NCBI GenBank assembly: GCA_963713825.1
Contig: CAVQNG010000005.1
Span: 480,001 to 544,000, forward strand
Origin: an uncultured Acidobacteriota bacterium
GTDB taxonomy: Bacteria > Acidobacteriota > Thermoanaerobaculia > Multivoradales > JAHEKO01
DNA length: 64,000 bases
Direction of reading: 5' to 3'
Shown: in pieces, positions 10,995 through 43,554 of the stretch
How the letters are laid out: each line of letters begins with the position of its first letter
Numbering within the stretch: the first letter of the stretch is position 1
Notes under the pieces: generated by a model
Databases searched by the model: none
Told to the model about the DNA's origin: nothing
What the model saw: only the letters and a program-made list of their open reading frames with translations
Made by a program: the position numbers and the translations under genes

Positions 10995-11022
10995 TCACCT
11001 CCAGGTTCTCAGAACTTCCTTT

Positions 11023-12425: not shown

Positions 12426-13511
12426 TGTCCCCGTCCATACTGGTAGTAGGCGGCGCAGGCCCCTTCAGCGGAGACCATCGGGGCGCCCAGAGGGTGCTCA
12501 GGCGTGCACTTCGTACCGAAGGCCGTGCACTCGATGGGGTTTCTGCAGTCCCTTCAGGATCTCACCGGCGATGCACTCCGGCGCCTCCTGGGTCACGATG
12601 TCTCCCACGTCGTAGCGCTGCTCGGCGTCGAAGGTGACCAGCTCTTCTTTCAGCCGATAGCCGCTCATGGGGATCTCACCGATACCCCGCCATTTGCGGT
12701 CGCAGACGTCGAAGACCTGTCCCAGGAGCTTCTGGGCCGGCTTGTTACCGTCCCGCGTCACCGCCCTCGTGTACTGATTCTCGACGCCGTAACGGCCTTC
12801 CTCGAGAGCCTTCAACGTCATGTAGATGCCGTGCAACAGATCGAGTGGCTCGAAGCCGGTCACGATGAGGGGGATCTTGTACTTCTCGCCAATGGGCTCG
12901 TACTCCCAGTAACCCATCACCGCGCAAACATGGCCAGCCGCGAGGAACCCCTGCACTTGGTTGTCGGGAGCGCTCAAGAGAGCCTCCATGGCTGGGGGCA
13001 CCAGGACGTGCGAGCAGAGGATGGAGAAATTCTCGATGCCGAGTTGGTGTGCCTGCCAGACGGCCATCGCGTTGGGTGGGGCAGTGGTCTCGAAACCGAC
13101 GGCGAAGAACACCACCTCCTTATCCGGATTCTGCTGGGCCAGCTTCACCGCGTCCAGAGGTGAGTAGACCATCCGTACGTCGGCCCCCTCGCTCTTGACG
13201 GCCAGCAGATCCGAGGTCGAGCCGGGCACCCTGAGCATGTCGCCGAAGGAGGTGAAGATCACATTCGGTCGGCGCGCGATCACCAGCGCCTTGTCGATGA
13301 GCTCGAGAGGTGTCACGCAGACCGGACATCCGGGGCCGTGCACGAGAGTCACCGACTCGGGCAGCAACCGATCGACGCCCGACTTGATGAGCGTGTGTGT
13401 CTGGCCGCCACAGATCTCCATCAGGGTCCAGTCGCGAGTGACCAGTTCCTCGATTCCCTCGACGAACTTGCGAGCGTCCTCCTCGCTGCGGTACTCGTCG
13501 ATGAACTTCAT
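12422..13511 (-). CDS. hypD: Hydrogenase maturation protein HypD with a +1 frameshift near the 3' end (~12533-12540)
   Basis: [27 protein letters not shown]; the conserved tail [30 protein letters not shown] is in the next frame and ends in a TGA overlapping the hypE ATG. Confidence 0.9.
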
Positions 13512-13802
13512 CTAGTTGGCCTCGCCGGGTCCGGTCGGCTGGACCTCACTCGGCTGCGGCACGTCGAGCTCTTCGAGCTCGCCCATCTCCTTGAGGAACT
13601 CGAAGACCTTGTGGGCTTCCGCTTCGTCGATCGTACTGATCGCGAAGCCGACGTGCACGACGACGTAGTCGCCGACCTCGACCTCCGGCGTGTAGGCGAG
13701 ACAGACCTCTTTGACGATGCCGCCGAAGCTCACCCGCGCCATATTCATGCCGGTTGGATCTTCCCGGATTTCGAGGATCTGGCCTGGAACACCTAAACAC
13801 AT
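13512..13802 (-). CDS. hypC: Hydrogenase assembly chaperone HypC/HybG
   Basis: MCLGVPG, VGDYVVVHVGFAI. Confidence 0.96.
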   Translation of the reverse strand: MCLGVPGQILEIREDPTGMNMARVSFGGIVKEVCLAYTPEVEVGDYVVVHVGFAISTIDEAEAHKVFEFLKEMGELEELDVPQPSEVQPTGPGEAN

Positions 13803-13814
13803 CTTGCACCCCCT

Positions 13815-16229
13815 CTAGTCAGTCAACGGACTCGATCCCTCTGCCATTCGCGCCGCGGCGACCGCGATCTGTCCCAAGCTGATGCCACCATCATTGGGTG
13901 GCACCTGCCGGTGCAACAAGACGTCGAAGCCGGCCTCGCGCAGCCGCTGACTGGCTCGCTCGGTCAGGAGCCGGTTCTGGAAGCAGCCTCCCGTCAAGGC
14001 TACTTTCGGCTCCCCGACCGCTTTGGCGACCGCCAGTATGGCCTCCACCAGAGCGTTGTGGAACCTGGCGGCAATGATACCGACATCCACCCCGCGTCGC
14101 GAGTCCTCGATCATGGCCTCGACAAGCGGCTGCCAGTCGATCTCCAGGATCTCTTCCCGATCCTCGGGCGCCGCCTGGAAGAGCTCGCGATCAGCCGAAG
14201 GTGTGGCGACGACGACAGGGTAGGCGGCGAGCACATCTTTGTCGGCGATCCACTCCACGGCCATAGCAGCCTGGCCTTCGAAGGCGACCCTCTGCTGAAT
14301 CCCCAGAATGGAGGCCACCGCGTCGAAGAGGCGGCCGGCGCTGGTCGTGCGCGGGGTGTTGAGCCCTGTCTCGAGCATGTGTCCCAGCAAGCGGAGCTCC
14401 GCCTCGTCGAAGGCCTGCACCGGTGTCAGGTCATCGCGATCCAAAGCCTCGTCACCGAGCATCTCCCATAGAAGTGCCAGCCCGCATCGCCGGGGCTGTT
14501 TGACGGCCGCATCGCCTCCCGGTAAATGGAAGGGCCGGAGTCGGCAGACGCGAGAGAACGAGGCCATGTCCCCGAGCAGGAACTCGCCTCCCCATACCGT
14601 GCCATCGGTGCCATATCCGGTGCCGTCCCAGGTGACCCCCAACGCCCTGGTCTCGACCTCGTTCTCCATCAGGCAGCCAGCCAGATGGGCATGGTGGTGC
14701 TGCACGGCGAACGTCGGCTTGCCGACGAGCAGGTTCTTCCAGGATGATCCCTCGCCGATTTGTGACGTCGATGTATCTGCATCGCTACCGTCGACGATCT
14801 GCTGCACCCATCGGGTCGAGGGGTAGTCAGGATGCAGGTCGTTGACGATCGCTACGGGCTCGGCCTCGTACATGTCGAGAAAGTCCCGGGCCACCGCCTC
14901 GAAGGCTTCGAAGGCCTGGGGTGTTTCCATGTCGCCGATGTGCTGGCTCAAGAAGACCTTGTCACCGACGGAGAGCGCGACCGTGTTCTTCAGGTGGGCT
15001 CCCACCGCAAGCAGAGTCGGGAGCGGCTTGGCGGCGACGATCGGCATGGGGGCCATACCTCGCGCGCGGCGGATCGGTTGAGCCTTGCCAGCGACAACCG
15101 AGACCACGCTGTCATCGACATGGCGCTGGATCGGTCGGTCGTGGACCAGGAGCAGGTCCGCGATCCCGCCGAGGCGGTCCAAAGCCTCTCCGTTGTCGAT
15201 GCAGATCGGCTCGTCGCTCAAGTTGCCGCTGGTCGCGACGACTGGGAAGCTGAGCTCCCCGAGCAGCAGGTGATGCAGCGGGGTATAGGGAAGCATCAGG
15301 CCGAGCCACGGATTGTCCGGTGCCACCGCCGCGGCGATCCCGGCAAACGGCTGACGCTGCAGTAAGACGATGGGGCTCTCCGGGGATTCCAACAGGGTTT
15401 CTTCGGCGGGATCCACGAGGCAGATCCGTCGCGCTTCCTCGATGTCCCGCACCATGAGTGCCAGGGGTTTTTCATAGCGCGCTTTGCGTTGTCGCAGGCG
15501 GGTGACCGCGGCGGCGCTGCGACCATCGACCATCAGATGGAAGCCGCCCAGGCCCTTGACCGCCAGAATCTCTCCGCGGCGGAGGGCTTCAGCCGCCTGT
15601 TGCAAAGCGAAGTCGCCGGTCGCTTGGGTGTTCCCTCTGGTGTCCCACAGGGCGAGTTGGGGGCCACAAGCCGGACAGGCATTGGGCTGGGCGTGAAACC
15701 TCCGGTCCATGGGCTCGGTGTATTCGCCACCGCACTCCGGGCACATTTGGAAACCGCGCATCGTCGTATTCGGGCGGTCGTAGGGCAACGCCTCGATGAT
15801 GGTGAAGCGTGGGCCGCAGTTCGTGCAATTCGTAAATGGGTAACGGAAACGCCTGTCGCCTTTGTCCAGCACCTCGGCGAGGCAGTCGGGGCAGGTGGCG
15901 ATGTCCGGCAGCATGACTACCGACTTGGTGCCCTCCTCCTCGCTGTGCCGAATTTCGAAGGTCTCGAACCCCTCCGGCGCCAACCAGTTCATCTCCAGGC
16001 TATGAATGACGGCGCGAGGAGGCTTCTCGACCGGCAGGCGACGCAGGAAGGTGTCCAGAATCTCCTTCGGTCCCTCGACTTCGATGAAGACCCCGCGACT
16101 GTCGTTGAGGACCCACCCCGGCAGCTCCATCTCGTGGGCCAGGCGGTAGACGTAGGGCCGAAACCCGACGCCCTGTACGGCGCCACGGATCTCGATTCCC
16201 AGCCTCCTGGTGTCCTGGTCGGACGTCAT
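13815..16229 (-). CDS. hypF: Carbamoyltransferase HypF
   Basis: Acylphosphatase GAVQGVGFRP, zinc fingers CPDC/CTNCGPR/CPEC/CPACGP, QHHHAH, DGTGYG, PPNDGGISLGQ. Confidence 0.97.
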   Translation of the reverse strand: MTSDQDTRRLGIEIRGAVQGVGFRPYVYRLAHEMELPGWVLNDSRGVFIEVEGPKEILDTFLRRLPVEKPPRAVIHSLEMNWLAPEGFETFEIRHSEEEGTKSVVMLPDIATCPDCLAEVLDKGDRRFRYPFTNCTNCGPRFTIIEALPYDRPNTTMRGFQMCPECGGEYTEPMDRRFHAQPNACPACGPQLALWDTRGNTQATGDFALQQAAEALRRGEILAVKGLGGFHLMVDGRSAAAVTRLRQRKARYEKPLALMVRDIEEARRICLVDPAEETLLESPESPIVLLQRQPFAGIAAAVAPDNPWLGLMLPYTPLHHLLLGELSFPVVATSGNLSDEPICIDNGEALDRLGGIADLLLVHDRPIQRHVDDSVVSVVAGKAQPIRRARGMAPMPIVAAKPLPTLLAVGAHLKNTVALSVGDKVFLSQHIGDMETPQAFEAFEAVARDFLDMYEAEPVAIVNDLHPDYPSTRWVQQIVDGSDADTSTSQIGEGSSWKNLLVGKPTFAVQHHHAHLAGCLMENEVETRALGVTWDGTGYGTDGTVWGGEFLLGDMASFSRVCRLRPFHLPGGDAAVKQPRRCGLALLWEMLGDEALDRDDLTPVQAFDEAELRLLGHMLETGLNTPRTTSAGRLFDAVASILGIQQRVAFEGQAAMAVEWIADKDVLAAYPVVVATPSADRELFQAAPEDREEILEIDWQPLVEAMIEDSRRGVDVGIIAARFHNALVEAILAVAKAVGEPKVALTGGCFQNRLLTERASQRLREAGFDVLLHRQVPPNDGGISLGQIAVAAARMAEGSSPLTD

Positions 16230-21650: not shown

Positions 21651-23471
21651 ATGACGAACATCCTGGGGATTTCGGCGTTCTACCATGACTCCGCGGCCTG
21701 CCTCGTGCAGGACGGAGAGCTCGTGGCCGCTGCCCAGGAGGAGCGCTTCACCCGCAAGAAGCACGACCACCGATTTCCCGATTCAGCAGTGCGGTACTGC
21801 CTGCAGGAGGCTGGCATCACGGCCGATCAACTGGATGCCGTGGCCTTCTACGACAAGCCCTGGCTGAAGTTCGAGCGGTTGCTGGAGACCTACCTCTCCT
21901 TTGCACCGGCGGGCCTGCCTTCGTTCCTGAAGGCGATGCCGCTGTGGCTGAAGCAGAAGCTCTGGATGGGCGAGCTGATCCAGAAACAGGTCGGCTTCGA
22001 GGGCGACTTGCTCTACCCCGAGCACCATCAATCCCACGCTGCCTCGGCCTTCTATCCCTCGCCGTATCAGCGGGCAGCGATCTTGACCATCGATGGTGTC
22101 GGCGAATGGGCCACCGCATCCTGGGGTGTAGGCCATGACCACAATGTAGACATCCGCTGCGAGCTGATGTTTCCTCACAGCCTCGGATTGCTCTATTCGG
22201 CCTTCACCTACTACACCGGTTTCCGAGTCAACTCGGGTGAGTACAAAGTGATGGGCCTCGCCCCGTACGGCGAGCCGAAGTACGTCGACCTGATCCTCGA
22301 CAATGTGATGGACCTGCGCGAGGACGGCTCCTTCTGGCTGGACATGGACTACTTCAACTACTGCCAGGGTCTGACGATGACCTCGGAGAAGTTCCATCGG
22401 CTTTTCGGGGGCCCGCCGCGGGCTCCGGAGTCGGAGCTGACGCAGAAGGAGATGGACCTGGCCCGCTCGGTCCAGGAGGTCACTGAAGAAGCCATGTTGC
22501 GCATGGCCCGGCATGTGAAGAAAGAGACCGGCGAGAAGTACCTCTGTCTGGCCGGCGGCTGTGCCCTCAACTGCGTGGCCAACGGCAAGATCCTGCGCTC
22601 CGGCATCTTCGAGGACATCTTTATCCAGCCGGCTGCTGGAGATGCCGGCGGAGCGCTCGGAGCGGCCCTCTTCACCTGGCACCAGGTGATGCAGAAACCT
22701 CGAACGGCAGCCGGAGATCGTGACTCCCAGAAGGGTTCCTACTTGGGGCCGGCGTTCGAGTCCAAGACGATCGAGACGTGGCTCGAACGGGAGGAGATCC
22801 CCTACGAGCGACATGAGCCCGAGGCAATCCCAGGCCTGGTCGCCGACATCATCGACGACGAGAAGGTCGTTGGCTTCTTCGCGGGCCGAATGGAATTCGG
22901 TCCCCGAGCCCTGGGTGGGCGCAGCATTATCGGCGATGCCCGCTCGACCAAGATGCAGTCGATCATGAACCTGAAGATCAAGTACCGGGAGTCCTTCCGG
23001 CCTTTCGCGCCCTCCTGTCTCGTCGAGGATGTCTCGGAGCTCTTCGAGCTCGACCGTCCCTCGCCCTACATGCTCCTCGTGGCGGACGTCCAGAAGAGTC
23101 GGCGCAAGGCGATGACCGAGGAGCAGAAGAGCTTCTTCGGCATCGAGAAGCTGAATGTGCCCCGCTCGGACATACCGGCGATCACCCATATCGACTACTC
23201 TGCCCGTGTGCAATCGGTCGATGGTGTCAACAACCGGCCCTACTACGACACGATTCGAGCTTTCAAGGAGAAGACCGGCTACGGGGTGGTCGTCAACACG
23301 TCGTTCAATGTGCGCGGGGAGCCCATCGTCTGCACGCCGCAGGATGCGTTTCTCTGCTTTATGCGCACTGAGATGGACGTGCTGGTGCTCGAGAACCTCG
23401 TCCTCTACAAGACACAGCAAAAGGAGCTCGAAGGCGACGAGGACTGGCGGGAGCAGTATGACCTGGACTGA
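21651..23471 (+). CDS. Carbamoyltransferase, NodU/CmcH (SxtI-like) family
   Basis: ILGISAFYHDSAA, EERFTRKKHD, EHHQSHAASAF, DGVGE, AGGCALN, EFGPRALG, RESFRPFAP, NTSFNVRGEP. Confidence 0.93.
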   Translation: MTNILGISAFYHDSAACLVQDGELVAAAQEERFTRKKHDHRFPDSAVRYCLQEAGITADQLDAVAFYDKPWLKFERLLETYLSFAPAGLPSFLKAMPLWLKQKLWMGELIQKQVGFEGDLLYPEHHQSHAASAFYPSPYQRAAILTIDGVGEWATASWGVGHDHNVDIRCELMFPHSLGLLYSAFTYYTGFRVNSGEYKVMGLAPYGEPKYVDLILDNVMDLREDGSFWLDMDYFNYCQGLTMTSEKFHRLFGGPPRAPESELTQKEMDLARSVQEVTEEAMLRMARHVKKETGEKYLCLAGGCALNCVANGKILRSGIFEDIFIQPAAGDAGGALGAALFTWHQVMQKPRTAAGDRDSQKGSYLGPAFESKTIETWLEREEIPYERHEPEAIPGLVADIIDDEKVVGFFAGRMEFGPRALGGRSIIGDARSTKMQSIMNLKIKYRESFRPFAPSCLVEDVSELFELDRPSPYMLLVADVQKSRRKAMTEEQKSFFGIEKLNVPRSDIPAITHIDYSARVQSVDGVNNRPYYDTIRAFKEKTGYGVVVNTSFNVRGEPIVCTPQDAFLCFMRTEMDVLVLENLVLYKTQQKELEGDEDWREQYDLD

Positions 23472-23483
23472 TCGTTGGGAATG

Positions 23484-23526
23484 CGGTGACAGGCACCTCA
23501 TTTCTGAAATGAGGTGCCTGTCACCG
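23484..23526. repeat. Perfect 43-bp palindrome (21-1-21), REP-like
   Basis: CGGTGACAGGCACCTCATTTC-T-GAAATGAGGTGCCTGTCACCG. Confidence 0.85.
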
Positions 23527-23543
23527 AAAAAAGGAAGAGGCTG

Positions 23544-23945
23544 ATGAGCGAGCACGCAGCCAAGACCGTCAAAGAGCTCCGGAAGTTCGGCTTCGCATTC
23601 ACGGGCGGTCTGACGCTTCTCGGTAGCCTGCTCCTCTGGCGGGGCAAGGCGCCGGGTCCCTATGTCCTGGGAGCGGCCGCTGTGGTCCTAACCCTGGCTC
23701 TGCTGGCACCTGCCGCGCTTCGACCGCTGGAAAAGACGCTCGCCACGATCTTCCGGTGGGTCACGGCTGCCCTGACTTACGTGATCCTGGTTGTGACCTA
23801 CTATCTGGTGGTGACCCCGATGGGGATCATCATGCGACTTCTGGGCAAGGATCCCCTGCATTTGAAGCGAGAGCCGAATCGACCATCCTTCTGGGTATCG
23901 GTAGAGGAGGATGGGCCGGCGTCGCGGCCGGACAAGCCGTACTAG
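23544..23945 (+). CDS. SxtJ-family membrane protein
   Basis: KELRKFG, YYLVVTPMGIIMRLLGKDPL..SFW; follows the carbamoyltransferase. Confidence 0.85.
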   Translation: MSEHAAKTVKELRKFGFAFTGGLTLLGSLLLWRGKAPGPYVLGAAAVVLTLALLAPAALRPLEKTLATIFRWVTAALTYVILVVTYYLVVTPMGIIMRLLGKDPLHLKREPNRPSFWVSVEEDGPASRPDKPY

Positions 23946-23946
23946 A

Positions 23947-24740
23947 GGGTCGAGGCGGCCGTCATGCTTCCGGCCGATCTTTGAGGGCTTGGGGGTTGAA
24001 GAGGCCGTCGCTTGCTCCGGCCGGGTCTTTGGGGCGATGGGGCAGAGAAGTACTGAAGCGACCGGCGTCTCTGCCGGCCGGGGTGTGTGGGGGAGGGGAA
24101 GGTTCTTCTATAATCGAGATCTGATTAGTGGCTTTGAAGGGATAGGCAGCTCATGGCATCGAATTCCAAGATCGGCACCATCTGGGGCTTTCTCAAGACC
24201 CGCAAGAAGTGGTGGCTGACGCCCATCATTCTCACTCTGGTCCTGCTGGCGGCCCTGATCGTGCTGACCGAGTCCTCGGCGGTCGCGCCGTTCATCTACG
24301 CGTTGTTTTAGGCGCGGGCTCGTACCTCGCCCACGCAGGGTAATGAGGGCTTGGGGTTGAGGAGTCCGGCGTTCCTTCGGGCAATCCTTGAGGCAGTGGG
24401 GCACTGAGGGCTTGGGGGTTGAGGCGCTCGGCGAGTGCGCCGAGCGGTCTTTGGGGGCTTGGGGGAAGACGGATTCAATACCCCTCGGCCCTTACGCCCC
24501 TAAGCCCATCTGAATCGGCCGCCCCTACAGAGTAGACGCGTTTGAAGCGGCCGGACCTGTGCCGGCCGGGGAGCCCCAAGCCCCAGAACCCAAGCCCCCA
24601 TTGCCTCAAAGGTCGGCCGGAGCAAGCGACGGACGATTCAACCCCCAAGCCCTCAAAGAATCGGCCTACACGAAGTGTGGCCGCCTCAACCCCCAGGCCC
24701 TCAAAGACCAGCCGAAGGTACGCCGGCTGGCTCAACCCTC
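23947..24740. repeat. Clusters of ~45-50-bp units TTGAGGGCTTGGGGGTTGA(A/G)-hairpin-TCT with variable loops (family 2)
   Basis: Units at 23947-24040 and 24343-24465 (+) and 24600-24740 (-); isolated related hairpins at ~19401, 21562, 24054, 24541, 28393, 28466, 30060, 30280. Confidence 0.75.
24153..24311 (+). CDS. SxtK/DUF5989-family small membrane protein (52 aa)
   Basis: Below the ORF-track cutoff: MASNSKIGTIWGFLKTRKKWWLTPIILTLVLLAALIVLTESSAVAPFIYALF, with the RKKWWL and APFIYxLF signatures. Confidence 0.9.
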   Translation: MASNSKIGTIWGFLKTRKKWWLTPIILTLVLLAALIVLTESSAVAPFIYALF

Positions 24741-25145: not shown

Positions 25146-26081
25146 ATGAGATTTCATGGGAAGTTGCTGTTCCTGGTGGCATCAGCTGTCCTGTTGGTCG
25201 CGGCGGTAGCGACGGCGGGCGACGTACCGACGGCGGACAACGCCTACATCGGTAGCGAAGCCTGCCTGGACTGCCATGAAGTGGCTGACTTGGGGCTCAT
25301 GGAGCACGACGTGCACATGCAGATCCAATCTTTCGAAGTGCAGGGCCGCGAGGTCGGCTGCGAGGGCTGTCATGGCCCTGGCAAGCTGCATATGGAGGAG
25401 AGCGATCCGGAATTGATTCGCACCTTTGCTGATGATGCGGACTACTCCCAAGAAGTGTGCATGAACTGCCACGCCACCAAGAACCTGCCGGAATGGGATG
25501 CCTCGATCCACGCACTCGAGGCCGTCCAGTGCACTGATTGTCACGGGGTGCACAAGAGGACGTTCAAGCCCAATGAAGCGTGCACAGCCTGCCACGCGGA
25601 TGCGAGGGCCGCTTTCGAGCTGCCGTCGCACCATCCGCTACGCGAGGGCAAGATGGAATGCTCTAGCTGTCACGACCCACACTCTGCCACCGAGTTCATG
25701 CTCAAGACGCGCATGCGCAAGGCCGATCTTTGCTACACCTGTCATCAGGACAAAGAAGGCCCGTTCATCTTCGAGCATCCCCCGGTGCAAGAGGACTGCA
25801 ATCTCTGCCACACGCCGCACGGCTCCGTGGCCGACAACCTGCTCACCGCCAATGAGCCGACGTTGTGCTTGCAGTGCCATGACTTCCACTTTCACACCGG
25901 ATACCGCGCCTCCGACAGCCTCGAAGTGGACGTTGGAGGAATCGAGCGAGAGAACCCGTTCGGTCCCGAGGGCTTCCAGATTGCCTACTCGACCAATTGC
26001 ACGCAGTGCCATGCCCGGGTCCACGGATCCGACACCCCGTCGCAGACGCCGACGAACTACGGCAAGGGCCTGACCCAGTAA
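25146..26081 (+). CDS. Periplasmic decaheme cytochrome c, DmsE/MtrA/PioA family
   Basis: Signal peptide; 10 CxxCH; SHHPLREGKMECSSCHDPH, KEGPFIFEHPPVQEDC, CTQCHARVHGSD. Confidence 0.92.
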   Translation: MRFHGKLLFLVASAVLLVAAVATAGDVPTADNAYIGSEACLDCHEVADLGLMEHDVHMQIQSFEVQGREVGCEGCHGPGKLHMEESDPELIRTFADDADYSQEVCMNCHATKNLPEWDASIHALEAVQCTDCHGVHKRTFKPNEACTACHADARAAFELPSHHPLREGKMECSSCHDPHSATEFMLKTRMRKADLCYTCHQDKEGPFIFEHPPVQEDCNLCHTPHGSVADNLLTANEPTLCLQCHDFHFHTGYRASDSLEVDVGGIERENPFGPEGFQIAYSTNCTQCHARVHGSDTPSQTPTNYGKGLTQ

Positions 26082-26093
26082 AGGAGGAGAGAG

Positions 26094-28259
26094 ATGAAAA
26101 CAACCTATCGACTCCTACTGGTAGCTCTGGTAGTGGCAACGGTCCCGGCGGCGACGATGGCGGCTATCGGTGACGGTGGCACCATCATTGTCGAGCGGAC
26201 TTTCTGGCTTGGATACTGGGACTCCAGCGTCGACGGATCTCCGGATCTCGCCGCCGAGTACCGAGTGATCGGTGACGGCCCCGACCTGGGCGTCAAGCTG
26301 AAGACCATCCACGAGTGGGGCGCAGTCGACTTCTACGGCCGGTATCGCGATTCGGCAGACCAGAAGTACAAACTGGACTTCGACGTCAATCGCGTGTTCC
26401 GTTCACAGAATTTGCTCAATTCGCTCATCCATCGGCTCGGACATCAGCCGATCGAGCACTTCCAGGCGGCGACCAATCATGGCCGTGTGGTGTGGGAGAG
26501 CGACCTCGATCCAGATTCGGAATACGACCTCAAGTACCAGGTCTTCGAGACCAAAAACGAGGTTCAGTTGCCGAGCGTCGACGGCCTTACGGTCGGTTTC
26601 GGCTATCGCAACCAGCAGCGTAAGGGGACGCGTCAGCACACGACGATTTCTCACTGCGATGCTTGTCATGTGAACAGTCAGGACCGGCCGACCGACGAGA
26701 CCACGGACGACGCCTATATCGATCTGAAATACGCCTGGGCTTCGAACTTCGTTCGCGGCAGCTACACCGGGCGCAGCTATAGTGAGAGCCCACAGAACAT
26801 CTCGCTACTGTTCGATGACGCGCTGCAACCGGAATTGAGAACCCCGGTTTTCGACAATCGTGTCCAGTGGGATGTCGACGAAGGCCCGCAGCCCGTGGAC
26901 CTGAAGCCGGACATCTCGAAGGACATCTTCAAACTCGACACCCTGATCAATACCAGCGGTTGGGGCATCGTCGGCGAAGGCGTCTGGTCTTCGACCGAGA
27001 ACGACTACACACGCAACAAGACCGATTTCACCGGTTTCATGGCGAGTGTGGCCAAGCGTTTCGGCTCGGATCGGCGCTGGAACTTCCGCTGGCGGGGTCG
27101 TACCTACTCGGTTGACAATTCCACGGTGGAGTTGGTTCCGATCCAGCGGCCAGGTACGGCTGGACCGCAGTCACCGGGGACCTATGGTTCCTACTACCCC
27201 GATTGGCCGCAGACATTCACCCGACTGCCGGCAGTGAAACGGGACGTCCTCGAGTCGAAGGCCGATCTCGTCTTCGGTAGGTCCACTCGCGGTATCGGAC
27301 AGTTCCGGTTCACCTGGAACTACGACAAGCAGGATCGTGAGTACTACGAAGTGGCCCCGGGAACGACCGACACCACGAAGAACCTGCTCGGTGTGTCCTG
27401 GTCGGCACGACCTGGGAAGGGTTGGAAGACGTATGCCGGCATCAAGTACGCCGACATCAGCAATCCCTTTCAGATCGTTGATGGCAAGTACTCGACGCTG
27501 GTCTCACAACCGTCCGGAGGCAGCCCCTTCGACCCGCGTGCGGCCCAGTACTGGCAGATGCACAACGCTCGCATCGCCGAAGGAACGACGTCGCCAGCGT
27601 CCTACTTCCAGGCTGACTTGCGTGGCACCTACCTGCACGACGGCAACATGCTGACGGCTTCGTACCGCTACTGGAAGGGTGACAACAATGACGGTGATCT
27701 GAATGACTGGGCGCGGGATTCCCAGGCCTTCAACATCACCTACTGGGCGACACCCTCGCCGGATTGGCAGTGGTACGTCGGTTACAACTACAACGACACC
27801 TCGATGGACACGGTGTTCACCATCCCGATCTTCGATGGGTGAGCGGGCTCCATTGTTTCGGGCCAGGCTGGCTCGGATTCGAGCACGACCAAGTACACAT
27901 CCACCGTCAACACCGGGATGGGTGGCCTGAAGTTCAAGGTCACAGAAGCATTCAAGATTGGTTTCGACCTGGCATACGTCGATGCCACGGCTGGAATGGA
28001 CTCATTCCGATTCGAAACCGCTGAAGCATGGGCGGCTACCAAGCCGAACCAGAACTACGACATGTCGCTGGTCAACACCTATTCGGATCTCGACACCTCG
28101 CGATTCGAGTCGGACCTGTGGGCCAAGTTCGGCTTCGGGAAGTCTCTCTTCCTGTATGGCGACTGGCGGTATGTCGACTATGCCGACGACGCGCCGTATC
28201 TCTACGACACGTCCGGCGAGATCAGCTGGTACACGCTCAGCCTAGGCTGGTCGTTCTGA
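26094..28259 (+). CDS. MtrB/PioB-like outer-membrane beta-barrel with one CxxCH and an in-frame UGA at 27840-27842 (probable selenocysteine)
   Basis: ORFs 26094..27842 and 27918..28259 share a frame and are separated only by one TGA; signal peptide; SHCDACH; C-terminal YTLSLGWSF beta-signal; SECIS-like hairpin follows the TGA. Confidence 0.8.
27843..27884 (+). promoter_or_regulatory. Candidate bacterial SECIS element
   Basis: Stem TTCGGGCCA (27857-27865) / TGGCTCGGA (27869-27877), loop GGC starting 23 nt after the UGA; possible lower pairing GCTC/GAGC. Confidence 0.6.
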
Positions 28260-28296: not shown

Positions 28297-28332
28297 GACC
28301 CCGCCCTTCATTGGGCGGGGTCGTTTTTGTTT
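28297..28332 (+). terminator. Rho-independent terminator of the cytochrome-porin operon
   Basis: GACCCCGCCC-TTCATT-GGGCGGGGTC followed by GTTTTTGTTT. Confidence 0.85.
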
Positions 28333-38603: not shown

Positions 38604-39863
38604 TTACCTCGCAACCTGCTGGTGGCAGGAAACACAGAGATCGCCTGCGGGATCGAGATGCGACAGAGCTTTGAAAGGCGAGCCATGGGACCGGTGGCAA
38701 CTCAGGCAATCGAGGGTCAGGTTCATGTTGCGCTGGTCCACGATCTCGTCCCCGAGGGGATGGGAGGAGTGCTGGCGCCAATCATGACAGGAGCCACACA
38801 GTTCGTCGACGCTCTCGTAGTCCGACAGAAACACATTGTCCGCCGCGTGGGGTGCATGGCAGGCGCTGCACTCACCATCTTCGACTGGCTGATGTCTCGA
38901 GGCATCCTCTCCCAGATGGGCAGTGCTGTCCTGATGGCAGTTGGCGCACAACTCCTTGCCCGGTGCGATCAGCAATCCCGTTTCATTCGAGGCATGGGGA
39001 TTGTGACAATTCAAGCAGGCGGTCTCGTCGGCAACCGGCCAGTGGAGCCGGTTCTTGTTGAAGGCGGCATTCAAGACATCGCTGTGACAGCCGCGACACA
39101 GCTGTGCGCCTGTCGCTTTCAATTCCAGCGCGTTGGGCGAGGAAGCTTCCAGGTGACACTGGTTGCACATCTTGTTGGTGAGCGGGGCGTGAACCTCGGC
39201 CAGCATGAGGCCCCCGTTGTTCGAGCCGTGCGGATCGTGACAGGAAGAGCAGCGCGAGTCTGCAACTGGATAGCCCATGTGCTGTTGGGAAAACGAGGCC
39301 TGAGTGGTGTTGTGACAGGACTTGCACAGAGCTTCCATATCCTGTTTCAGCAGAGACCCGGCCTTGGTCGAGGCATGAGGGTCGTGGCAAGTGAGGCAAT
39401 TCTGCCGCACTGGAGCGTGCCCGAACTCGCTCTGCTCCACGGTAGCCGCGATCTCCTCGTGGCAGCTGTAGCAGAGTTGATTGCCACCAGCGACCAGGAC
39501 CTTGGGGTTTTGCGAAGCGTGGGGATCGTGGCAGGTAGCACAGTTGCCCTCGAGCACCGCTTGATGGATGCTCACCGCCTCTTCAGGAACGATGTCTGAA
39601 TGACAGGTGGAGCAGATGGTGCTCGCATCGGAGTCCAGCAGCTGGCCGTGCGACGCCGCATGAGGATTGTGGCAATCGGAGCAATCGCCAGCTTTGACTG
39701 GTGTGTGCACGAAGGGCAACTTGATCTGTTCCTGGACCGTGACGTGGCAGTCGAGACAAAGCGCGCCCTTCGCACCCGTCTTCAAACGGTACGGATTCTG
39801 GGAAAAGGCTGCTGCCGGTAGGATCAGCAGGCCGATAAGAACGATCTTCCAGCGTAGGCGCAT
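38604..39863 (-). CDS. 16-heme cytochrome c (paired CxxCH repeat type)
   Basis: Signal peptide MRLRWKIVL; 16 CxxCH counted; HxPV..CxxCHxPHxS repeats. Confidence 0.92.
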   Translation of the reverse strand: MRLRWKIVLIGLLILPAAAFSQNPYRLKTGAKGALCLDCHVTVQEQIKLPFVHTPVKAGDCSDCHNPHAASHGQLLDSDASTICSTCHSDIVPEEAVSIHQAVLEGNCATCHDPHASQNPKVLVAGGNQLCYSCHEEIAATVEQSEFGHAPVRQNCLTCHDPHASTKAGSLLKQDMEALCKSCHNTTQASFSQQHMGYPVADSRCSSCHDPHGSNNGGLMLAEVHAPLTNKMCNQCHLEASSPNALELKATGAQLCRGCHSDVLNAAFNKNRLHWPVADETACLNCHNPHASNETGLLIAPGKELCANCHQDSTAHLGEDASRHQPVEDGECSACHAPHAADNVFLSDYESVDELCGSCHDWRQHSSHPLGDEIVDQRNMNLTLDCLSCHRSHGSPFKALSHLDPAGDLCVSCHQQVAR

Positions 39864-39874
39864 CTCGAGTCCCT

Positions 39875-41845
39875 CTATTCCTGATCGACGAAATGGCAGT
39901 CTTCGCAGGACCTTGCGGCGAAGGGGGCGTGGGCCTCCTCCTTGAACATCTTGGGATCCTGCGAGGAATGGGGAGCATGACAGCTCATGCAATTCATGAC
40001 CCCCGGGTCGATGTATACGTGAGCGTAAGCGAAACTGTCGGATTCCAGATTGTGACACTCACTGCAGAGCGTTGTGGTGTCCTTGCTCAACAGCGGAATC
40101 TGCTCAGAGAAGTGCGGCTCGTGGCACCTCTGACAGTCCCTGGCCGCCGGGTCATGCGCCACTTCCGAGTCCATTCTTGCCTTCAGGTCCTCGTGGCAGG
40201 CGGCACAAAGGTCCGGACCCTGGGCCAGAAGCAGGGCCGAGGATTTCGACTTGTGCGGATTGTGGCACCCGGTGCATTGGCCTGCCGCCAGTGGCTCGTG
40301 TTGGCTGGCGGCTTCCTGCATGCCGTCACCGACATCCGAATGACATTCGATGCAGAGCTCGTCCTCGGCTTTCACGATCATGCCGACTTCGTTACTGGCA
40401 TGGGCGTCGTGACAACCGAGGCAATCCCCGTCTTCGAACGGATAGTGGGTGGTGCCGGCCGTTTCCGGCTTCAGCAGATCCGCATGGCAGTCGGCACAAA
40501 GGGCCGAGCCGGCCTTCTTGAGCAGGCCCGCCTCTTCGGCACCATGCGCCGCATGACAGGCGACACAATCGCCGGTCAGGACCGGTTGATGAACATTGGA
40601 CACCTGGTAGCTGAGCTCGGCGTCTCCGTGACACTCGAAGCAGACTCGATCGGGGCGGTCATTGAGGATGGCCACGGAGTTCGAGCCGTGCGGGTTGTGG
40701 CACGAAGCGCACATCCCGTCGACGTAGGGCATGTGCTCGGCCGCTTGCCCCGTCTCCGGCTCGCCGTGGCAGCTGGAGCAGAGCGCTGCACTTTCCTCGA
40801 CCAGGAGACCTTCATGGGTCGCGGTGTGCGGTGCGTGGCAGGATCGGCAACCATCGCCGTCCGTCAGGGCGGCGTGACTATTGAGAACCTCTTGTCCCTG
40901 CTCCGAGTGGCACTCGACACAGAGCAGATTGCCCTTGCGGGCCAGGAGAGAGGGGCTATCCGCGGCGTGGGGGTCGTGGCAGCCTTCGCACATGCCGGCG
41001 CCGAAGGGCTCATGCATCACAGAGCCCATCTCGGACAATCCGGACTCGTCGTGGCACTGGAAACAGAGGGAGCTACCGCCCTCGGTGAGCTCGAACGGAG
41101 TCGAGGAACCGGCTGCCTCATGGCAGGAGTCACAGGCGGCCTCGGCCACTGGAGCGTGAACGCTGGCCCTGAGTAGGGCGGGTTGAGATGCGGAATGAGG
41201 ATCGTGGCACAGAGCGCAATCGGACGACTCGACAGGATAGCCCTGATGGGATCCTGCAAACCCGGCGTCGTTCGCCTCATGGCAAGAGAGGCACAAGGGG
41301 GTCGCTGCACTCGTCAGGAGATCGGGAAAGTCCGAGCTGTGAGCCTTGTGACACGCACCACACCCCTCGTCTCGCAGCACCTCGTGCACCACTGGCTGTT
41401 CGAAGTCTGCTCTGTCGTGACAGACGAAGCAGGCCTCGGCTCCCGAGGAGCCCAGAAGGTGTTGGCCCTGCGAAGCGTGTGGGTTGTGGCACGAAGTGCA
41501 ATCGGTGCCGCCGAGAAGGGCGGTATGGACATGGGCCTTCTGCAATCCGAGAGACTCCTGGTCATGGCACTCGTAGCAGAGCTGATTGCCTTGCTTCTTC
41601 AATAGCAGCTTGGGCACGAGGCCGTGTCTCAGGTGACAGGTCTCACAGTTACCGTCCTTCATGCCAGGATGCTGGCTCTTCATTCCGCGGTACTGCTGCT
41701 CGAACTCGGCATGGCAGTCGGCGCAGTCTTTCGAGCCCCCCAGCGACCGTCGCTTCTGGGCCAGGGTCGAATCGCTTGCACCCAGTGCCAAGACGGTCCA
41801 GATCAGCAACAGGACACCAAGGCGGGTCGTTCTTTCTCCGTTCAT
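39875..41845 (-). CDS. 26-heme cytochrome c (paired CxxCH repeat type)
   Basis: Signal peptide; 26 CxxCH counted. Confidence 0.92.
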   Translation of the reverse strand: MNGERTTRLGVLLLIWTVLALGASDSTLAQKRRSLGGSKDCADCHAEFEQQYRGMKSQHPGMKDGNCETCHLRHGLVPKLLLKKQGNQLCYECHDQESLGLQKAHVHTALLGGTDCTSCHNPHASQGQHLLGSSGAEACFVCHDRADFEQPVVHEVLRDEGCGACHKAHSSDFPDLLTSAATPLCLSCHEANDAGFAGSHQGYPVESSDCALCHDPHSASQPALLRASVHAPVAEAACDSCHEAAGSSTPFELTEGGSSLCFQCHDESGLSEMGSVMHEPFGAGMCEGCHDPHAADSPSLLARKGNLLCVECHSEQGQEVLNSHAALTDGDGCRSCHAPHTATHEGLLVEESAALCSSCHGEPETGQAAEHMPYVDGMCASCHNPHGSNSVAILNDRPDRVCFECHGDAELSYQVSNVHQPVLTGDCVACHAAHGAEEAGLLKKAGSALCADCHADLLKPETAGTTHYPFEDGDCLGCHDAHASNEVGMIVKAEDELCIECHSDVGDGMQEAASQHEPLAAGQCTGCHNPHKSKSSALLLAQGPDLCAACHEDLKARMDSEVAHDPAARDCQRCHEPHFSEQIPLLSKDTTTLCSECHNLESDSFAYAHVYIDPGVMNCMSCHAPHSSQDPKMFKEEAHAPFAARSCEDCHFVDQE

Positions 41846-43554
41846 GGGTTCTCCTGAGAGTTCAGGCCGAGCAGCTGCTGGAGCCTGTCGTCGGTGACGA
41901 GAATCTCGATGTCAGAGGCCTTGCGCAACTCCTCGGCGTAGCGATCGATCGCTTCCTGTCGCTCTCGTCCAAAGGCCTGTTTGGCAATCTGCTCCCTGAC
42001 CTGATCGAACGACTGTGGAGTGGCTGGGAAGGTCTCCATGATGTGGAGAGCGTAAGAAGGTTTTCCGGGTTCGCCGTAGAAGCGGAAATCACCGGCTGCT
42101 GCGCCAGCGACCGCACTCCGGACTCCGGCGGGTAAACCGGGCACTGCCAACAGACTCCGGTTGAATTGCAGGGTGGGCTGATCGTCACCGGGTGGAATCT
42201 GACCGCTGGCATTCTCGCCCATCCACTGCATGTCCGCGCCCTGTCGCAACTTCTCTAGCGCGGCCTCCGCATCGGCCTTCTCGTAGAAGACCAGGCTGTC
42301 GATACGCATCATCTCGGGTCCGGTGTAGTCGGAGAGATGGTCCTGGTAGTAGGCCTGGAGCTCTTCTTCATCGAGACGGATCTCTGGATTGATCACCCGG
42401 CTGACAAAGGCAGCGAAGATCATGGTTTCTCGCAGGTCCTCGACCGAGGACTGGAATTCGCTCGAATCCAAGATTCCCAGCCTTTCTGCCTCCAGCTCGG
42501 CGGATCTCTCCAGCGTCAGGCGATCGAGAACCCCGAGGACCTCGTCGTTGACCCTCTGCTGCTCGAGGGCTCGCTCCATGCCATGGAAGAGCTCTTGTTC
42601 GATGGTCCTGGTCAGTTCAGCCACCGTGATCGGTTCACCGCCATCGACCTCGGCCAGTACCCTCTGATCGTTGCGAAAGTCCTCCAACCCGGCACTGCCT
42701 GCACTGTCGAAGTCGAGGCTTTCTGCCAGCTCCCGATCCGCGGTGATGTAGCGGCCTCGCATTTCTTCGGTGTAGTCGCGAAGTCGTTCCATCTGACGGA
42801 TTGTCAGGGCCTGACCTTCCGCTTCGGCGCGGGCCTCGGCATCTTCAGGAATGCGAGAGTCGAGCAGCTTCACGACGGCGAGGCCGCCAGTGATCGGAAT
42901 TGGCGCGCTGATTTCTCCTGCTTCCATCTGGGTCAGGGCCTCAGTCACTGAAGGCCACATCTCGGCGGCTTTGAGGTAGTCATCACCCATGGATACCTGC
43001 GCCTTGCCCTGCTGTACCATCCTCTTCGCCTGGGCCTCGAAGTCACCGCCCCCCCGAATGGCCGCCTCGAAGTAACTTGCATCCTCGGCATCCTGGAAGA
43101 GGACAGATTGGACTTTCACTTCGCGAACGGCATCACGATACAGCTGCTGCGCGACTTCCGGATCACCTGTAACGATGTCTTGGACCGCCGCTTGAGCGAT
43201 CCTCTGCCGAAGGAGGTCCAGGCGCCCCTCCTGCAGCCTGTTGATGACCTCTGGCAGCTCGCCCAAGCCGATGGCCTCGGCTTCTTGCATCATGAGTGTG
43301 GAGTTGATCACCCTGTCCAACAGCGCCGCAGCATCGGGGCGCTGGACCTTTTGACTCGCCTCGCCGAGGTCGACGTGGAAAGAGCTGACTTGACGCAGGA
43401 AGTCGTCGAGCGTGATGGGCTCGCCATTGACCCTGGCCAGGGGCTCCTGATCGGGAGCTTCGATCGGCTGAGCCCCGGCCGAGCCAACTGTTGCCGCGCA
43501 ACAGGCGATCGCGCCTAGTATCAGGGGTAGTTTCTTGCGGCTGGCTATTGTCAA
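41842..43554 (-). CDS. SurA/parvulin-like peptidyl-prolyl isomerase chaperone (duplicated domains)
   Basis: LARVNGEPIT and LAEVDGGEPIT, EELQAYY, GEISAPI, SFDQVREQI; TTG start after GGAGG. Confidence 0.8.
   Translation of the reverse strand: MTIASRKKLPLILGAIACCAATVGSAGAQPIEAPDQEPLARVNGEPITLDDFLRQVSSFHVDLGEASQKVQRPDAAALLDRVINSTLMMQEAEAIGLGELPEVINRLQEGRLDLLRQRIAQAAVQDIVTGDPEVAQQLYRDAVREVKVQSVLFQDAEDASYFEAAIRGGGDFEAQAKRMVQQGKAQVSMGDDYLKAAEMWPSVTEALTQMEAGEISAPIPITGGLAVVKLLDSRIPEDAEARAEAEGQALTIRQMERLRDYTEEMRGRYITADRELAESLDFDSAGSAGLEDFRNDQRVLAEVDGGEPITVAELTRTIEQELFHGMERALEQQRVNDEVLGVLDRLTLERSAELEAERLGILDSSEFQSSVEDLRETMIFAAFVSRVINPEIRLDEEELQAYYQDHLSDYTGPEMMRIDSLVFYEKADAEAALEKLRQGADMQWMGENASGQIPPGDDQPTLQFNRSLLAVPGLPAGVRSAVAGAAAGDFRFYGEPGKPSYALHIMETFPATPQSFDQVREQIAKQAFGRERQEAIDRYAEELRKASDIEILVTDDRLQQLLGLNSQENP

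What the first reader, a model, noticed from the sequence alone, without database searches (positions are those of the whole stretch)
26094..28259. Probable selenocysteine-containing, heme-bearing MtrB-like porin
Seen: the barrel gene after the decaheme cytochrome is broken only by one in-frame TGA (..IPIFDG-UGA-AGSIVSGQ..). The frame stays open to a C-terminal beta-signal (YTLSLGWSF), and a 9-bp stem with a GGC loop lies 23 nt downstream. The protein also has CDACH. Known: bacterial SECIS elements are hairpins just 3' of the UGA with a G in the apical loop; canonical MtrB has neither heme nor Sec. From memory, a GSU2204-like CxxCH (seleno)protein family has been described, so the family may be known although its function is not. 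Inference: a 721-aa porin with Sec and heme that could be redox-active itself.
Basis: partly seen in the sequence, partly recalled or inferred. Interest (0 to 1): 0.85.

Follow-up and report, generated by a model that had tools for sequence, protein, structure and literature searches.

The report
Selenocysteine-containing MtrB-like outer-membrane porin
The gene is one 721-residue outer-membrane barrel protein whose internal UGA almost certainly encodes selenocysteine; it is a real member of a selenoprotein family that is already catalogued but whose function is unknown.

Summary
ORF 26094-28259 has one in-frame TGA (27840-27842), a CDACH motif, a C-terminal beta-signal, and a 9-bp hairpin with a GGC loop after the TGA.

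Comparative evidence supports a recoded UGA:
- 59 of 59 informative related loci (of 63 fetched) carry TGA at the same column, never TAA, TAG or a sense codon.
- The 136-139 codons after it stay in frame, with dN/dS 0.02-0.34.
- The hairpin keeps its position and shows compensatory changes. 60 of 60 sequences meet the published bacterial SECIS criteria.
- Distant full-length relatives have Cys at this column in 5 of 11 cases.

The protein scores above the cut-off of NCBIfam NF041027, "GSU2204 family CXXCH-containing (seleno)protein". Two reviews (2022, 2026) list this family as a selenoprotein family, so the kind is known.

New here:
- An AlphaFold model resembles MtrB (TM 0.67/0.74).
- CxxCH and Sec sit at the low-confidence tips of two long hairpins, on the side I infer to be extracellular.
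- A GSU2203-type decahaem gene lies directly upstream in 58 of 63 loci.

Not shown: Sec machinery in this genome, haem attachment, and the role of Sec.

The parts
25146..26081 (+). Decahaem c-type cytochrome gene (311 aa), GSU2203 / DmsE-MtrA type; inferred partner inserted in the barrel
   Evidence: NF041028 345.5 bits (cut-off 325) and TIGR03508 226.8 bits (cut-off 192.2). Ten CxxCH motifs are invariant in 26 orthologues. An orthologue lies directly upstream of the porin gene in 58 of 63 related loci.
26083..26087 (+). Shine-Dalgarno GGAGG, 6 nt before the ATG; 12-nt gap to the decahaem stop codon
   Evidence: Read from the sequence.
26094..26162 (+). Predicted signal peptide (residues 1-23, ..ATMA|AIGD)
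   Evidence: Hydrophobic N-terminus read by eye; helix 3-21 with low pLDDT in the model. No signal-peptide predictor was run.
26094..27839 (+). Porin codons 1-582, the part before the UGA; predicted barrel strands 1-21
   Evidence: NF041027 matches residues 11-582 across the full 580-position model. 30 of 30 aligned database homologues end at this column.
26430..26444 (+). HRLGH motif (H113-H117); candidate distal haem ligand (inference)
   Evidence: H113 is at least 90% conserved, also among the distant Cys/Gly/Leu forms.
26655..26669 (+). CDACH haem-c attachment motif (C188, C191, H192) at the tip of the hairpin formed by strands 7 and 8
   Evidence: Cys at both positions in 59 of 60 sequences; the remaining row has a gap. 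At least 90% conserved in distant forms. In the model it is the tip between E165-186 and E191-215, with pLDDT below 50.
27840..27842 (+). In-frame UGA read as selenocysteine (U583)
   Evidence: TGA at the aligned column in 59 of 59 informative loci. Cys at this column in 5 of 11 distant full-length relatives.
27857..27877 (+). SECIS-type hairpin: 9-bp stem, GGC loop at 27866-27868, 23 nt from the UGA to the loop
   Evidence: 60 of 60 sequences meet the bSECIS criteria quoted in PMC13188914.
27843..28256 (+). Porin codons 584-721; predicted barrel strands 22-26 and the C-terminal beta-signal ..LGWSF
   Evidence: Open and in frame for 136-139 codons in 57 of 59 loci; the other 2 run off their contig. 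dN/dS 0.02-0.34. Strands E591-720 in the model.
28257..28259 (+). True stop codon (TGA)
28297..28332 (+). Terminator-like hairpin (10 pairs, 9 G-C) followed by a T-rich tail
   Evidence: The scan reports no terminator-like site between 27842 and 28259.

Best explanation
Region 26094-28259 is one gene for a 721-residue outer-membrane beta-barrel protein of the GSU2204 family.

How the UGA is read. The UGA at 27840-27842 is read as selenocysteine. The reading is directed by the hairpin that starts 14 nt downstream, which would recruit SelB carrying Sec-tRNA(Sec) in the established bacterial way. The recoding itself is shown by comparison; the involvement of SelB is inferred.

What the protein does. 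It is co-transcribed with the decahaem cytochrome encoded just upstream. I infer that the two form a two-gene porin-cytochrome conduit of the MtrA/MtrB kind: an MtrB-like barrel of about 26 strands sheathes the decahaem wire and carries electrons across the outer membrane.

What differs from MtrB. The barrel has two strictly conserved extras, each at the tip of a long polar hairpin that projects from the long-loop side, which I take to be extracellular:
- a CxxCH motif, so probably an eleventh, covalently bound haem, with H113 or H117 as the likely second ligand;
- the Sec, in the motif IPxFDG-U-AG, roughly opposite on the barrel rim.

My committed reading, all inferred, is that these tips form the redox exit site of the conduit. 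They would replace a separate MtrC-type surface cytochrome, with Sec acting as a redox-active nucleophile towards an extracellular acceptor.
For: Recoding:
- All 72 database homologues are 481-609 aa and cover at most 81% of the read-through query. 30 of 30 aligned ones end at G582.
- Of 63 related loci, 59 reach the column in frame, and all 59 have TGA there as their only in-frame stop.
- The true stops of the 57 loci that reach them are 22 TGA, 29 TAG and 6 TAA.
- Downstream dN/dS is 0.02-0.34 in 34 pairwise comparisons.
- Hairpin covariation is strong, and 60 of 60 sequences meet the bSECIS criteria at -8.5 to -14.0 kcal/mol.
- Of the 150 best representatives of 50%-identity clusters, 101 end exactly before the Sec column, 12 cross it and 5 are C-terminal fragments.
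- 5 of 11 aligned crossing forms have Cys at the column.
- TGA is the ordinary stop of 13 of 28 Pfam-supported genes in the window, so UGA is not reassigned.

Family: NF041027 scores 451.4 bits against a cut-off of 350. The family is listed as a selenoprotein family in the tables of PMC13188914 and PMC9312934 (passages seen).

Fold: pLDDT 80.9, pTM 0.75. The best PDB match is MtrB, 6r2q_B, E 3.8e-20, TM 0.67/0.74; the next matches have TM of at most 0.40.

Partner: the decahaem gene lies upstream in 58 of 63 loci.

One transcript: a terminator-like hairpin follows only the full-length ORF.
Against: - No selA, selB, selD or tRNA-Sec is in the 64-kb window or in the flanks of 56 related loci. 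The AIRS-domain gene at 11355-12425 is HypE, not SelD. The rest of the genome could not be searched.
- No Rfam family matches the hairpin, and the single-sequence fold is not significant.
- Six of 11 distant full-length relatives have Gly, Leu or Lys at the column yet keep CxxCH. The residue is therefore dispensable for the basic function of the fold, and it is not an obligatory haem ligand.
- Both functional tips have pLDDT below 50.
- No coordinates were available. The Sec-haem distance, the extracellular placement and the cytochrome-in-barrel arrangement rest on strand counting and analogy.
- By strand count the two tips are 14 of 26 strands apart, which argues against direct contact unless the hairpins bend inward.
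- Haem attachment and selenium content are untested.
Confidence: 0.85

Rival explanations
1. The TGA is a nonsense mutation or a sequencing error, and the gene is a pseudogene.
For: Under table 11 the ORF ends at 27842. No Sec machinery was seen in the window.
Against: The same TGA is present in 59 of 59 informative loci, at 32-88% best-segment protein identity. 101 of 150 cluster representatives end at that column. The tail is under purifying selection. The hairpin is conserved.
Confidence: 0.01
2. This is a split gene. Translation ends at the UGA, and the last five strands are made as a separate polypeptide from an internal start, for example the ATG at 27918.
For: Gene callers predict separate C-terminal ORFs of 113-133 aa. 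5 of the 150 representatives are such fragments. An ATG exists at 27918.
Against: - A C-terminal piece would have no signal peptide and could not reach the outer membrane (established knowledge of outer-membrane protein export).
- Conservation starts at the codon right after the TGA: A584 98%, G590 100%.
- The first possible start codon is at a different offset in different loci: +15, +39, +60 and +78 nt in L004, L001, L003 and L002 (ORF starts against TGA positions).
- The stop is always TGA, although the true stops of the same genes vary.
- Cys-containing relatives are single 718-810-aa chains.
Confidence: 0.03
3. The UGA is read through as a standard amino acid (Trp, Cys or Gly), either by near-cognate decoding or by a changed genetic code, and not as Sec.
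For: Sec machinery was not demonstrated for this genome. Some distant relatives have Gly at the column.
Against: TGA ends 13 of 28 well-supported genes in the window, and also this gene itself. A hairpin at a fixed distance with a G-first loop fits the bSECIS model in 60 of 60 sequences. Cys/UGA pairs at one column are the accepted signature of Sec. NCBI's curators model the family as a (seleno)protein.
Confidence: 0.04
4. Sec is real, but its role is not catalysis at an exit site. It could be an axial ligand (a His/Sec pair) to the barrel's own haem or to the last haem of the decahaem partner, tuning its potential. Or it could serve only as an antioxidant or a structural residue.
For: The residues flanking Sec are hydrophobic and highly conserved: I577 92%, P578 90%, F580 97%, as would be expected for a haem pocket. 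Cys-ligated haems exist in sulfur-oxidising cytochromes such as TsdA and SoxAX (recalled, not checked here).
Against: Relatives that have Gly or Leu at the column keep CxxCH and H113, so the barrel's haem does not need this ligand. The two tips are about 14 of 26 strands apart (my count). No coordinates were available to measure distances.
Confidence: 0.2

Closest known systems
[quoted passage not shown]
   Same: The HMM score is above the curated cut-off, and the model ends exactly at the residue before the UGA. It shares the CxxCH motif, the single Sec and the adjacent GSU2203-type decahaem gene.
   Different: Nothing in kind. This copy comes from a Thermoanaerobaculia-like (Acidobacteriota) lineage, judged by its nearest loci. 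The best-scoring full-length members of the model, P0079 and P0086 at 540 and 511 bits, carry Cys. In the Acidobacteriota-type set no Cys form was seen, 0 of 59.
MtrB of the MtrCAB complex (PDB 6r2q chain B) and the MtrB/PioB family (PF11854, TIGR03509)
   Same: It has the large barrel fold (TM 0.67/0.74; about 26 strands by my count). It lies next to a DmsE/MtrA-family decahaem cytochrome gene.
   Different: - Only 12% identity.
- Below the Pfam gathering score (20 against 23), and no TIGR03509 hit at E up to 0.01.
- It carries CxxCH and Sec, which MtrB lacks (recalled).
- No MtrC-type surface cytochrome gene is conserved beside it.
ExtKL (GSU2937-2936), the multihaem c-type cytochrome selenoprotein of the Geobacter ext cluster (NF040886)
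   Same: It is another Sec-containing component of an outer-membrane electron-transfer gene cluster. It too was first annotated as two genes split at a UGA (PMC5877670 passages; PMC13188914 table).
   Different: In ExtKL the Sec is in a cytochrome, not in the barrel. It is an unrelated family, and no sequence comparison was made here.
Cyc2-type fused cytochrome-porins of iron oxidisers (recalled, not tested here)
   Same: An outer-membrane barrel that itself carries a CxxCH haem site.
   Different: As recalled, Cyc2 has its haem motif at the N-terminus of a much smaller barrel, has no Sec and has no decahaem partner. Here the CxxCH is internal (residue 188), at a hairpin tip of an MtrB-sized barrel.

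Membership tests
GSU2204 family CXXCH-containing (seleno)protein (NF041027) | HMM score at or above the curated cut-off of 350 bits | tested here: met
   451.4 bits, E 5.3e-135; residues 11-582 match model positions 2-580 of 580.
GSU2204 family CXXCH-containing (seleno)protein (NF041027) | Conserved CxxCH motif | tested here: met
   C188, C191 and H192 are invariant in 31 sequences. Cys at both positions in 59 of 60 sequences; one row has a gap.
GSU2204 family CXXCH-containing (seleno)protein (NF041027) | Sec (UGA) or Cys immediately after the end of the 'Se_pt_1' model | tested here: met
   TGA at 27840-27842 follows residue 582. Family members P0079, P0086, P0158 and P0205 have Cys at this column.
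GSU2204 family CXXCH-containing (seleno)protein (NF041027) | Adjacent GSU2203-family decahaem cytochrome gene. The pairing is inferred from the family names and is not a stated rule of the model. | tested here: met
   NF041028 345.5 bits against a cut-off of 325 for 25146-26081. Present upstream in 58 of 63 loci.
Bacterial selenoprotein gene | In-frame UGA conserved among orthologues, with the downstream frame conserved | tested here: met
   TGA in 59 of 59 loci; 136-139 open codons downstream; dN/dS 0.02-0.34.
Bacterial selenoprotein gene | bSECIS: apical loop of 3-9 nt with a G in its first two positions, upper stem of 4-16 bp, 16-37 nt from the UGA, energy at or below -7.5 kcal/mol (criteria as quoted in PMC13188914) | tested here: met
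   Window: GGC loop, 9 bp, 23 nt, -11.2 kcal/mol. 60 of 60 sequences meet all four criteria. Covariation is shown. bSECISearch itself was not available.
Bacterial selenoprotein gene | Homologues with Cys at the Sec column | tested here: met
   5 of 11 aligned full-length relatives have Cys; 2 have Gly and 4 have Leu or Lys.
Bacterial selenoprotein gene | selA, selB, selC (tRNA-Sec) and selD present in the genome | not testable with these tools
   None is in the window or in the flanks of 56 loci.
Bacterial selenoprotein gene | Selenium found in the protein | not testable with these tools
   Needs 75Se labelling or mass spectrometry.
MtrB/PioB decahaem-associated outer-membrane porin (PF11854, TIGR03509) | Sequence-model score at or above the cut-off | tested here: not met
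   PF11854 scores 20.0 bits against a gathering score of 23, over residues 152-237 only. TIGR03509 is not listed at E up to 0.01.
MtrB/PioB decahaem-associated outer-membrane porin (PF11854, TIGR03509) | Large (26-strand) barrel fold like MtrB | tested here: met
   6r2q_B, E 3.8e-20, TMq 0.67, TMt 0.74. 26 barrel strands by my count of the DSSP elements, with the short E132-137 taken as a loop element.
MtrB/PioB decahaem-associated outer-membrane porin (PF11854, TIGR03509) | Adjacent MtrA/DmsE-type decahaem cytochrome | tested here: met
   TIGR03508 226.8 bits against a cut-off of 192.2.
MtrB/PioB decahaem-associated outer-membrane porin (PF11854, TIGR03509) | Physical complex with the decahaem cytochrome inside the barrel | not tested
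c-type cytochrome (haem covalently bound) | CxxCH motif in an exported protein | tested here: met
   CDACH at residues 188-192 and a hydrophobic N-terminal signal sequence.
c-type cytochrome (haem covalently bound) | Haem actually attached | not testable with these tools
   Needs haem staining or mass spectrometry.

The most novel reading that the evidence does not exclude
The barrel is not a passive sheath. It would be the terminal redox enzyme of a minimal two-gene conduit. An eleventh haem on one extracellular hairpin tip and a selenocysteine on another would together form a surface-exposed catalytic site, for example for polysulfide or elemental sulfur, for selenium or tellurium oxyanions, or for mineral-bound metals. 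They would do the job of a separate MtrC-type cytochrome. This would be, to my knowledge, the first selenoenzyme active site built into an outer-membrane beta-barrel; I searched the held literature only for this family's names, not for that wider claim.
Probability: 0.25. Interest if true: 0.75.

Novelty: new member of a known kind. Interest (0 to 1): 0.4.

Why it matters
Standard gene callers cut this gene in two. 101 of the 150 best cluster representatives in the public protein set are truncated at the UGA. As a result, an abundant and diverse porin of putative electron conduits in Acidobacteriota-type MAGs is systematically mis-annotated as a 580-aa 'hypothetical protein' plus a small ORF.

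The family's function is unknown. In Geobacter sulfurreducens, the transcripts of its namesakes GSU2203 and GSU2204 rose 2.4-2.7-fold with haematite (PMC4070692, table passage). A strictly conserved Sec and a haem motif at two tips of the barrel give a concrete, testable hypothesis about where electrons leave such a conduit when no MtrC-type partner is present.

Tried and rejected
- Single-sequence folding of 27830-27910 gave z = -0.41, which is uninformative.
- Rfam found nothing at gathering thresholds over the whole window. With E up to 10 over 27780-27960 it gave only a chance lncRNA match.
- No tRNA genes are in the window. The flanks of 56 loci hold only tRNA-Val and tRNA-Ser.
- A scan of the window for other in-frame TGA candidates with coding-like composition on both sides gave this gene plus 8 others. 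I judged those to be off-frame or antisense noise and did not test them further.
- The hairpin core GGCCAGGNTGGC, with up to 1 mismatch, occurs 6 times in the window against 2.7 expected; 7 of 100 shuffles reach 6. The only exact copy is this one. It therefore gives no sign of a second selenoprotein gene.
- Neighbour conservation: apart from the decahaem gene, the window's flanking genes recur in at most 2 of the 63 related loci each. A DUF3373 barrel plus a further multihaem cytochrome lie upstream in 21 of 63 loci, but not in the window.
- Both reviews cite Zhang and Gladyshev 2008 (PMC2398784) for this family. Its main text has 0 occurrences of 'cytochrome', 'outer membrane' or 'heme'. Its two held supplementary files have 0 of 'outer membrane', 'cytochrome' or 'Geobacter'. 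I could not trace the primary description.
There is no verdict on binding.
- The model's coordinates are not exposed, so the Sec-haem distance was not measured.
Full report
**1. The observation**

The sequence is as described.
- An ORF starts at 26094. A GGAGG lies 6 nt upstream, and the TAA of the preceding gene lies 12 nt upstream.
- It runs 582 codons to TGA at 27840-27842, in the context ..IPIFDG-TGA-AGSIVSGQ...
- The same frame continues for 138 codons to TGA at 28257-28259, ending ..YTLSLGWSF.
- CDACH is residues 188-192.
- The hairpin is 27857-27865 paired with 27869-27877, with loop GGC. It has 9 pairs, 3 of them G-U, and an energy of -11.2 kcal/mol.
The stem begins 14 nt after the UGA.
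- On the window alone this is not better than chance: an 81-nt fold has z = -0.41.

**2. Is the UGA recoded?**

A search with the read-through protein found 72 homologues. All are 481-609 aa long and cover at most 81% of the query. In an alignment, 30 of 30 of them, at 36-86% identity, end at the residue equivalent to G582.

I then fetched DNA for 63 related loci from species-representative genomes. By their record titles most are Thermoanaerobaculia, Holophagae or other Acidobacteriota MAGs, and the nearest has 88% protein identity. The loci sort as follows:
- 3 (L024, L044, L059) end before the column.
- 1 (L039) has a match length that is not a multiple of three, with many stops, and was set aside.
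- All of the remaining 59 have exactly one in-frame stop. It is TGA and sits at the aligned column.

After the TGA, 57 of the 59 continue for 136-139 codons to a beta-signal-like end. The other 2 (L035, L049) run off their contigs. The true stop codons of those 57 are 22 TGA, 29 TAG and 6 TAA, so the exclusive use of TGA at the internal site is not a general codon preference.

The tail is under purifying selection. dN/dS is 0.21-0.34 among the window and its three nearest relatives, against 0.13-0.17 for the upstream part. It is 0.02-0.19 in a second clade.

TGA also ends 13 of 28 Pfam-supported genes in the window, so the code is not reassigned.

**3. The hairpin**

I aligned the 66 nt from the TGA onward for 59 sequences (57 distinct; L049 was left out because it is too short). 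The 9-pair stem fares as follows:
- It is paired in 91.6% of cells.
- 5 of 9 pairs show changes on both sides. Pair 24-38, for example, occurs as U-A 23, A-U 16, G-C 13 and G-U 4.
- The covariation score is 0.358 against 0.101 in shuffles, and 0 of 500 shuffles reach it.
- Sliding the partner by 1-3 columns gives at most 55% pairing.

RNAalifold on its own recovered only 4 of the pairs. The shuffle control does not correct for relatedness. The slid control and the several independent pair types are therefore the stronger evidence.

The review PMC13188914 (section on SECIS, read in full) quotes four criteria for a bacterial SECIS:
- a stem of 4-16 bp;
- 16-37 nt between the UGA and the loop;
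- an energy of -7.5 kcal/mol or lower.

60 of 60 sequences (59 loci plus the window) pass all four. The loops are GGA 41, GGC 5, GUC 5, GUU 3, GGU 2, and four longer AGG../AGU.. loops. Rfam has no matching family.

**4. Cys homologues and the size of the family**

A profile of 16 read-through sequences, searched against 1.84 billion cluster representatives, found 721 proteins at E up to 1e-3. I re-scored the 150 best locally:
- 101 end exactly at the column before Sec;
- 12 cross that column;
- 5 are C-terminal fragments called as separate ORFs;
- 32 are other fragments.

I aligned eleven of the crossing proteins. At the Sec column, five have Cys (P0079, P0086, P0158, P0205, P0220), two have Gly, and four have Leu or Lys. 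All keep CxxCH, and H113 is kept in at least 90% of rows. Eight of the 12 proteins from that alignment that I scanned (the 11 crossing forms plus the UGA-truncated P0216) score above the NF041027 cut-off.

So there is the classical Cys/UGA pairing. There is also a lineage in which the residue has been lost.

**5. What it is**

- NCBIfam NF041027, 'GSU2204_Se_pt_1, GSU2204 family CXXCH-containing (seleno)protein', matches residues 11-582 over its whole length, with 451.4 bits against a cut-off of 350. The model stops precisely at the UGA.
- The upstream gene is NF041028, a 'GSU2203 family decaheme c-type cytochrome' (345.5 bits against 325). It also passes the DmsE/MtrA-type model TIGR03508. 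Ten CxxCH motifs are invariant in 26 orthologues.
- An orthologue of the decahaem gene lies directly upstream in 58 of 63 loci. The other five loci have little or no upstream sequence.
- No other neighbour is shared widely.
- A strong terminator-like hairpin (10 pairs, 9 G-C, then a T-rich tail) follows at 28297-28332, and the scan reports none between the two TGAs.

**6. Structure**

AlphaFold2 with a 36-row alignment gave pLDDT 80.9 and pTM 0.75. Foldseek against the PDB put MtrB of the Mtr complex (6r2q_B) far ahead, with E 3.8e-20, TMq 0.67, TMt 0.74 and 12% identity. The next hits, TonB-dependent receptors among others, have E around 1e-7 and TM of at most 0.40.

From the DSSP string I count 26 barrel strands, treating the short E132-137 as part of a loop. 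If both termini are periplasmic, as in other outer-membrane barrels (established knowledge), every even-numbered connection is a turn of 2-7 residues. The long loops (49-60, 115-144, 232-273, 343-382, 457-502, 636-663) then all fall on the other, extracellular side.

On that side, CxxCH (187-190) and Sec (582-588) are the tips of two unusually long hairpins: E165-186 with E191-215, and E558-580 with E591-617. In both, the membrane-like alternating hydrophobic stretch sits next to the periplasmic turn, and the distal 10-15 residues per strand are polar (read from the sequence). Both tips have pLDDT below 50.

The two hairpins are strands 7/8 and 21/22, about half-way round the barrel from each other.

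This topology is my inference.

**7. Two further details**

- Cys at residues 466 and 576 covaries perfectly. 44 of 60 sequences have both, 16 have neither (the window has Y and T), and none has only one. This is most simply a disulfide that ties loop 457-502 to the Sec hairpin. It shows that Sec is not part of a CxxU-type pair, in line with the '-' in the motif column of the review's table.
- The invariance of G590, Q591 and G593 in the Sec forms coincides with the codons that make the top of the SECIS stem and its loop. The Cys forms have F, M, E or G in place of Q591. Part of the apparent protein conservation after the Sec is therefore probably an RNA constraint.

**8. Mechanism**

Shown:
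- It is one gene with a recoded UGA and a SECIS-type hairpin.
- It is a member of NF041027.
- It has an MtrB-like fold.
- It is coupled to a decahaem gene.

Inferred from the Mtr paradigm: the decahaem protein sits in the barrel and conducts electrons across the outer membrane.

Inferred from motif conservation: the barrel carries a covalently bound haem, with H113 or H117 of the near-invariant HRLGH motif in the neighbouring hairpin/loop as the second ligand.

Speculative: the haem tip and the Sec tip form the exit site that an MtrC-type protein provides in Shewanella.

Gly and Leu forms keep CxxCH and H113. This argues that Sec is an added catalytic or tuning residue, not a ligand that the barrel's haem requires.

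**9. What is known**

- The family is listed among prokaryotic selenoproteins in the tables of two reviews. [quoted passage not shown] PMC13188914 (2026) calls it 'GSU2204 family CXXCH-containing protein ... NF041027', with one Sec and no motif given (passage seen).
- Both reviews cite Zhang and Gladyshev 2008. I found no mention of it in that paper's main text or in its two held supplements.
- A full-text search for GSU2204 returned only two papers. A search for NF041027, NF041028 or GSU2203 returned three.
- The only functional hint is that GSU2203 (OmcK) and GSU2204 transcripts rose 2.4-2.7-fold with haematite in G. sulfurreducens (PMC4070692, table passage).
- A second Sec-containing component of Geobacter conduit clusters, ExtKL, is described in PMC5877670 (passages).

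The window's gene is thus a new member of a known kind. The kind's function and the role of Sec remain open.

**10. Limits**

- Sec machinery could not be checked for this genome. Nothing is in the window or in the locus flanks.
- The organisms behind the protein-cluster ids are unknown.
- Binding of the decahaem protein, haem attachment and selenium content are untested.

Noticed in passing
window 38604-47792, minus strand: A second putative porin-cytochrome cluster. It holds two large multihaem cytochromes (38604-40058 and 39875-41845; 8 and 11 paired-CXXCH stretches, with weak MtrC/OmcA-type hits), a SurA/PPIase-like gene (41842-43635) and a 746-aa outer-membrane barrel (45552-47792) that has no NCBIfam family.
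   Followed up: partly
window 4065-16229, minus strand: A [NiFe] hydrogenase gene set: large subunit 4065-5762, an NrfD-like membrane subunit, a 4Fe-4S subunit and the small subunit 7864-8991. It is followed by hypE (11355-12425), hypD, hypC and hypF. The large subunit is complete without a UGA. The AIRS-domain protein is HypE (473 bits) and not SelD (34 bits against a cut-off of 125).
   Followed up: partly
window residues 466 and 576 of the porin (nt 27489-27491 and 27819-27821), and loci L001-L063: A perfectly covarying Cys pair in the family: 44 of 60 sequences have both, 16 have neither, and 0 have one. This suggests a disulfide between loop 457-502 and the Sec hairpin. The window's protein belongs to the minority that lacks it, with Y466 and T576.
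   Followed up: yes
loci L004-L012 and others (21 of 63), about 1.5-4.8 kb upstream of the porin match, e.g. L004:1560-4848: One subclade has a DUF3373 outer-membrane protein and an extra multihaem cytochrome (Cytochrome_cB, with a weak MtrC-domain hit) upstream of the decahaem-porin pair. Both are absent from the window.
   Followed up: partly
window 2970-4061, minus strand: An ORF with a weak IS200-like Y1 transposase match (28 bits) lies beside the hydrogenase genes.
   Followed up: no
window 27855-27878 (porin codons 588-595): The residues after Sec that look invariant in the Sec forms (G590, Q591, G593) are encoded by the SECIS stem top and loop. The Cys-form relatives differ at Q591. Part of the 'protein' conservation here is therefore probably an RNA constraint.
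   Followed up: partly
window 21651-24219, plus strand: A carbamoyltransferase (NodU/CmcH-like, 606 aa) and a small SxtJ-like ORF lie upstream of the conduit genes. Both are shared only with the two nearest loci, L001 and L003.
   Followed up: no
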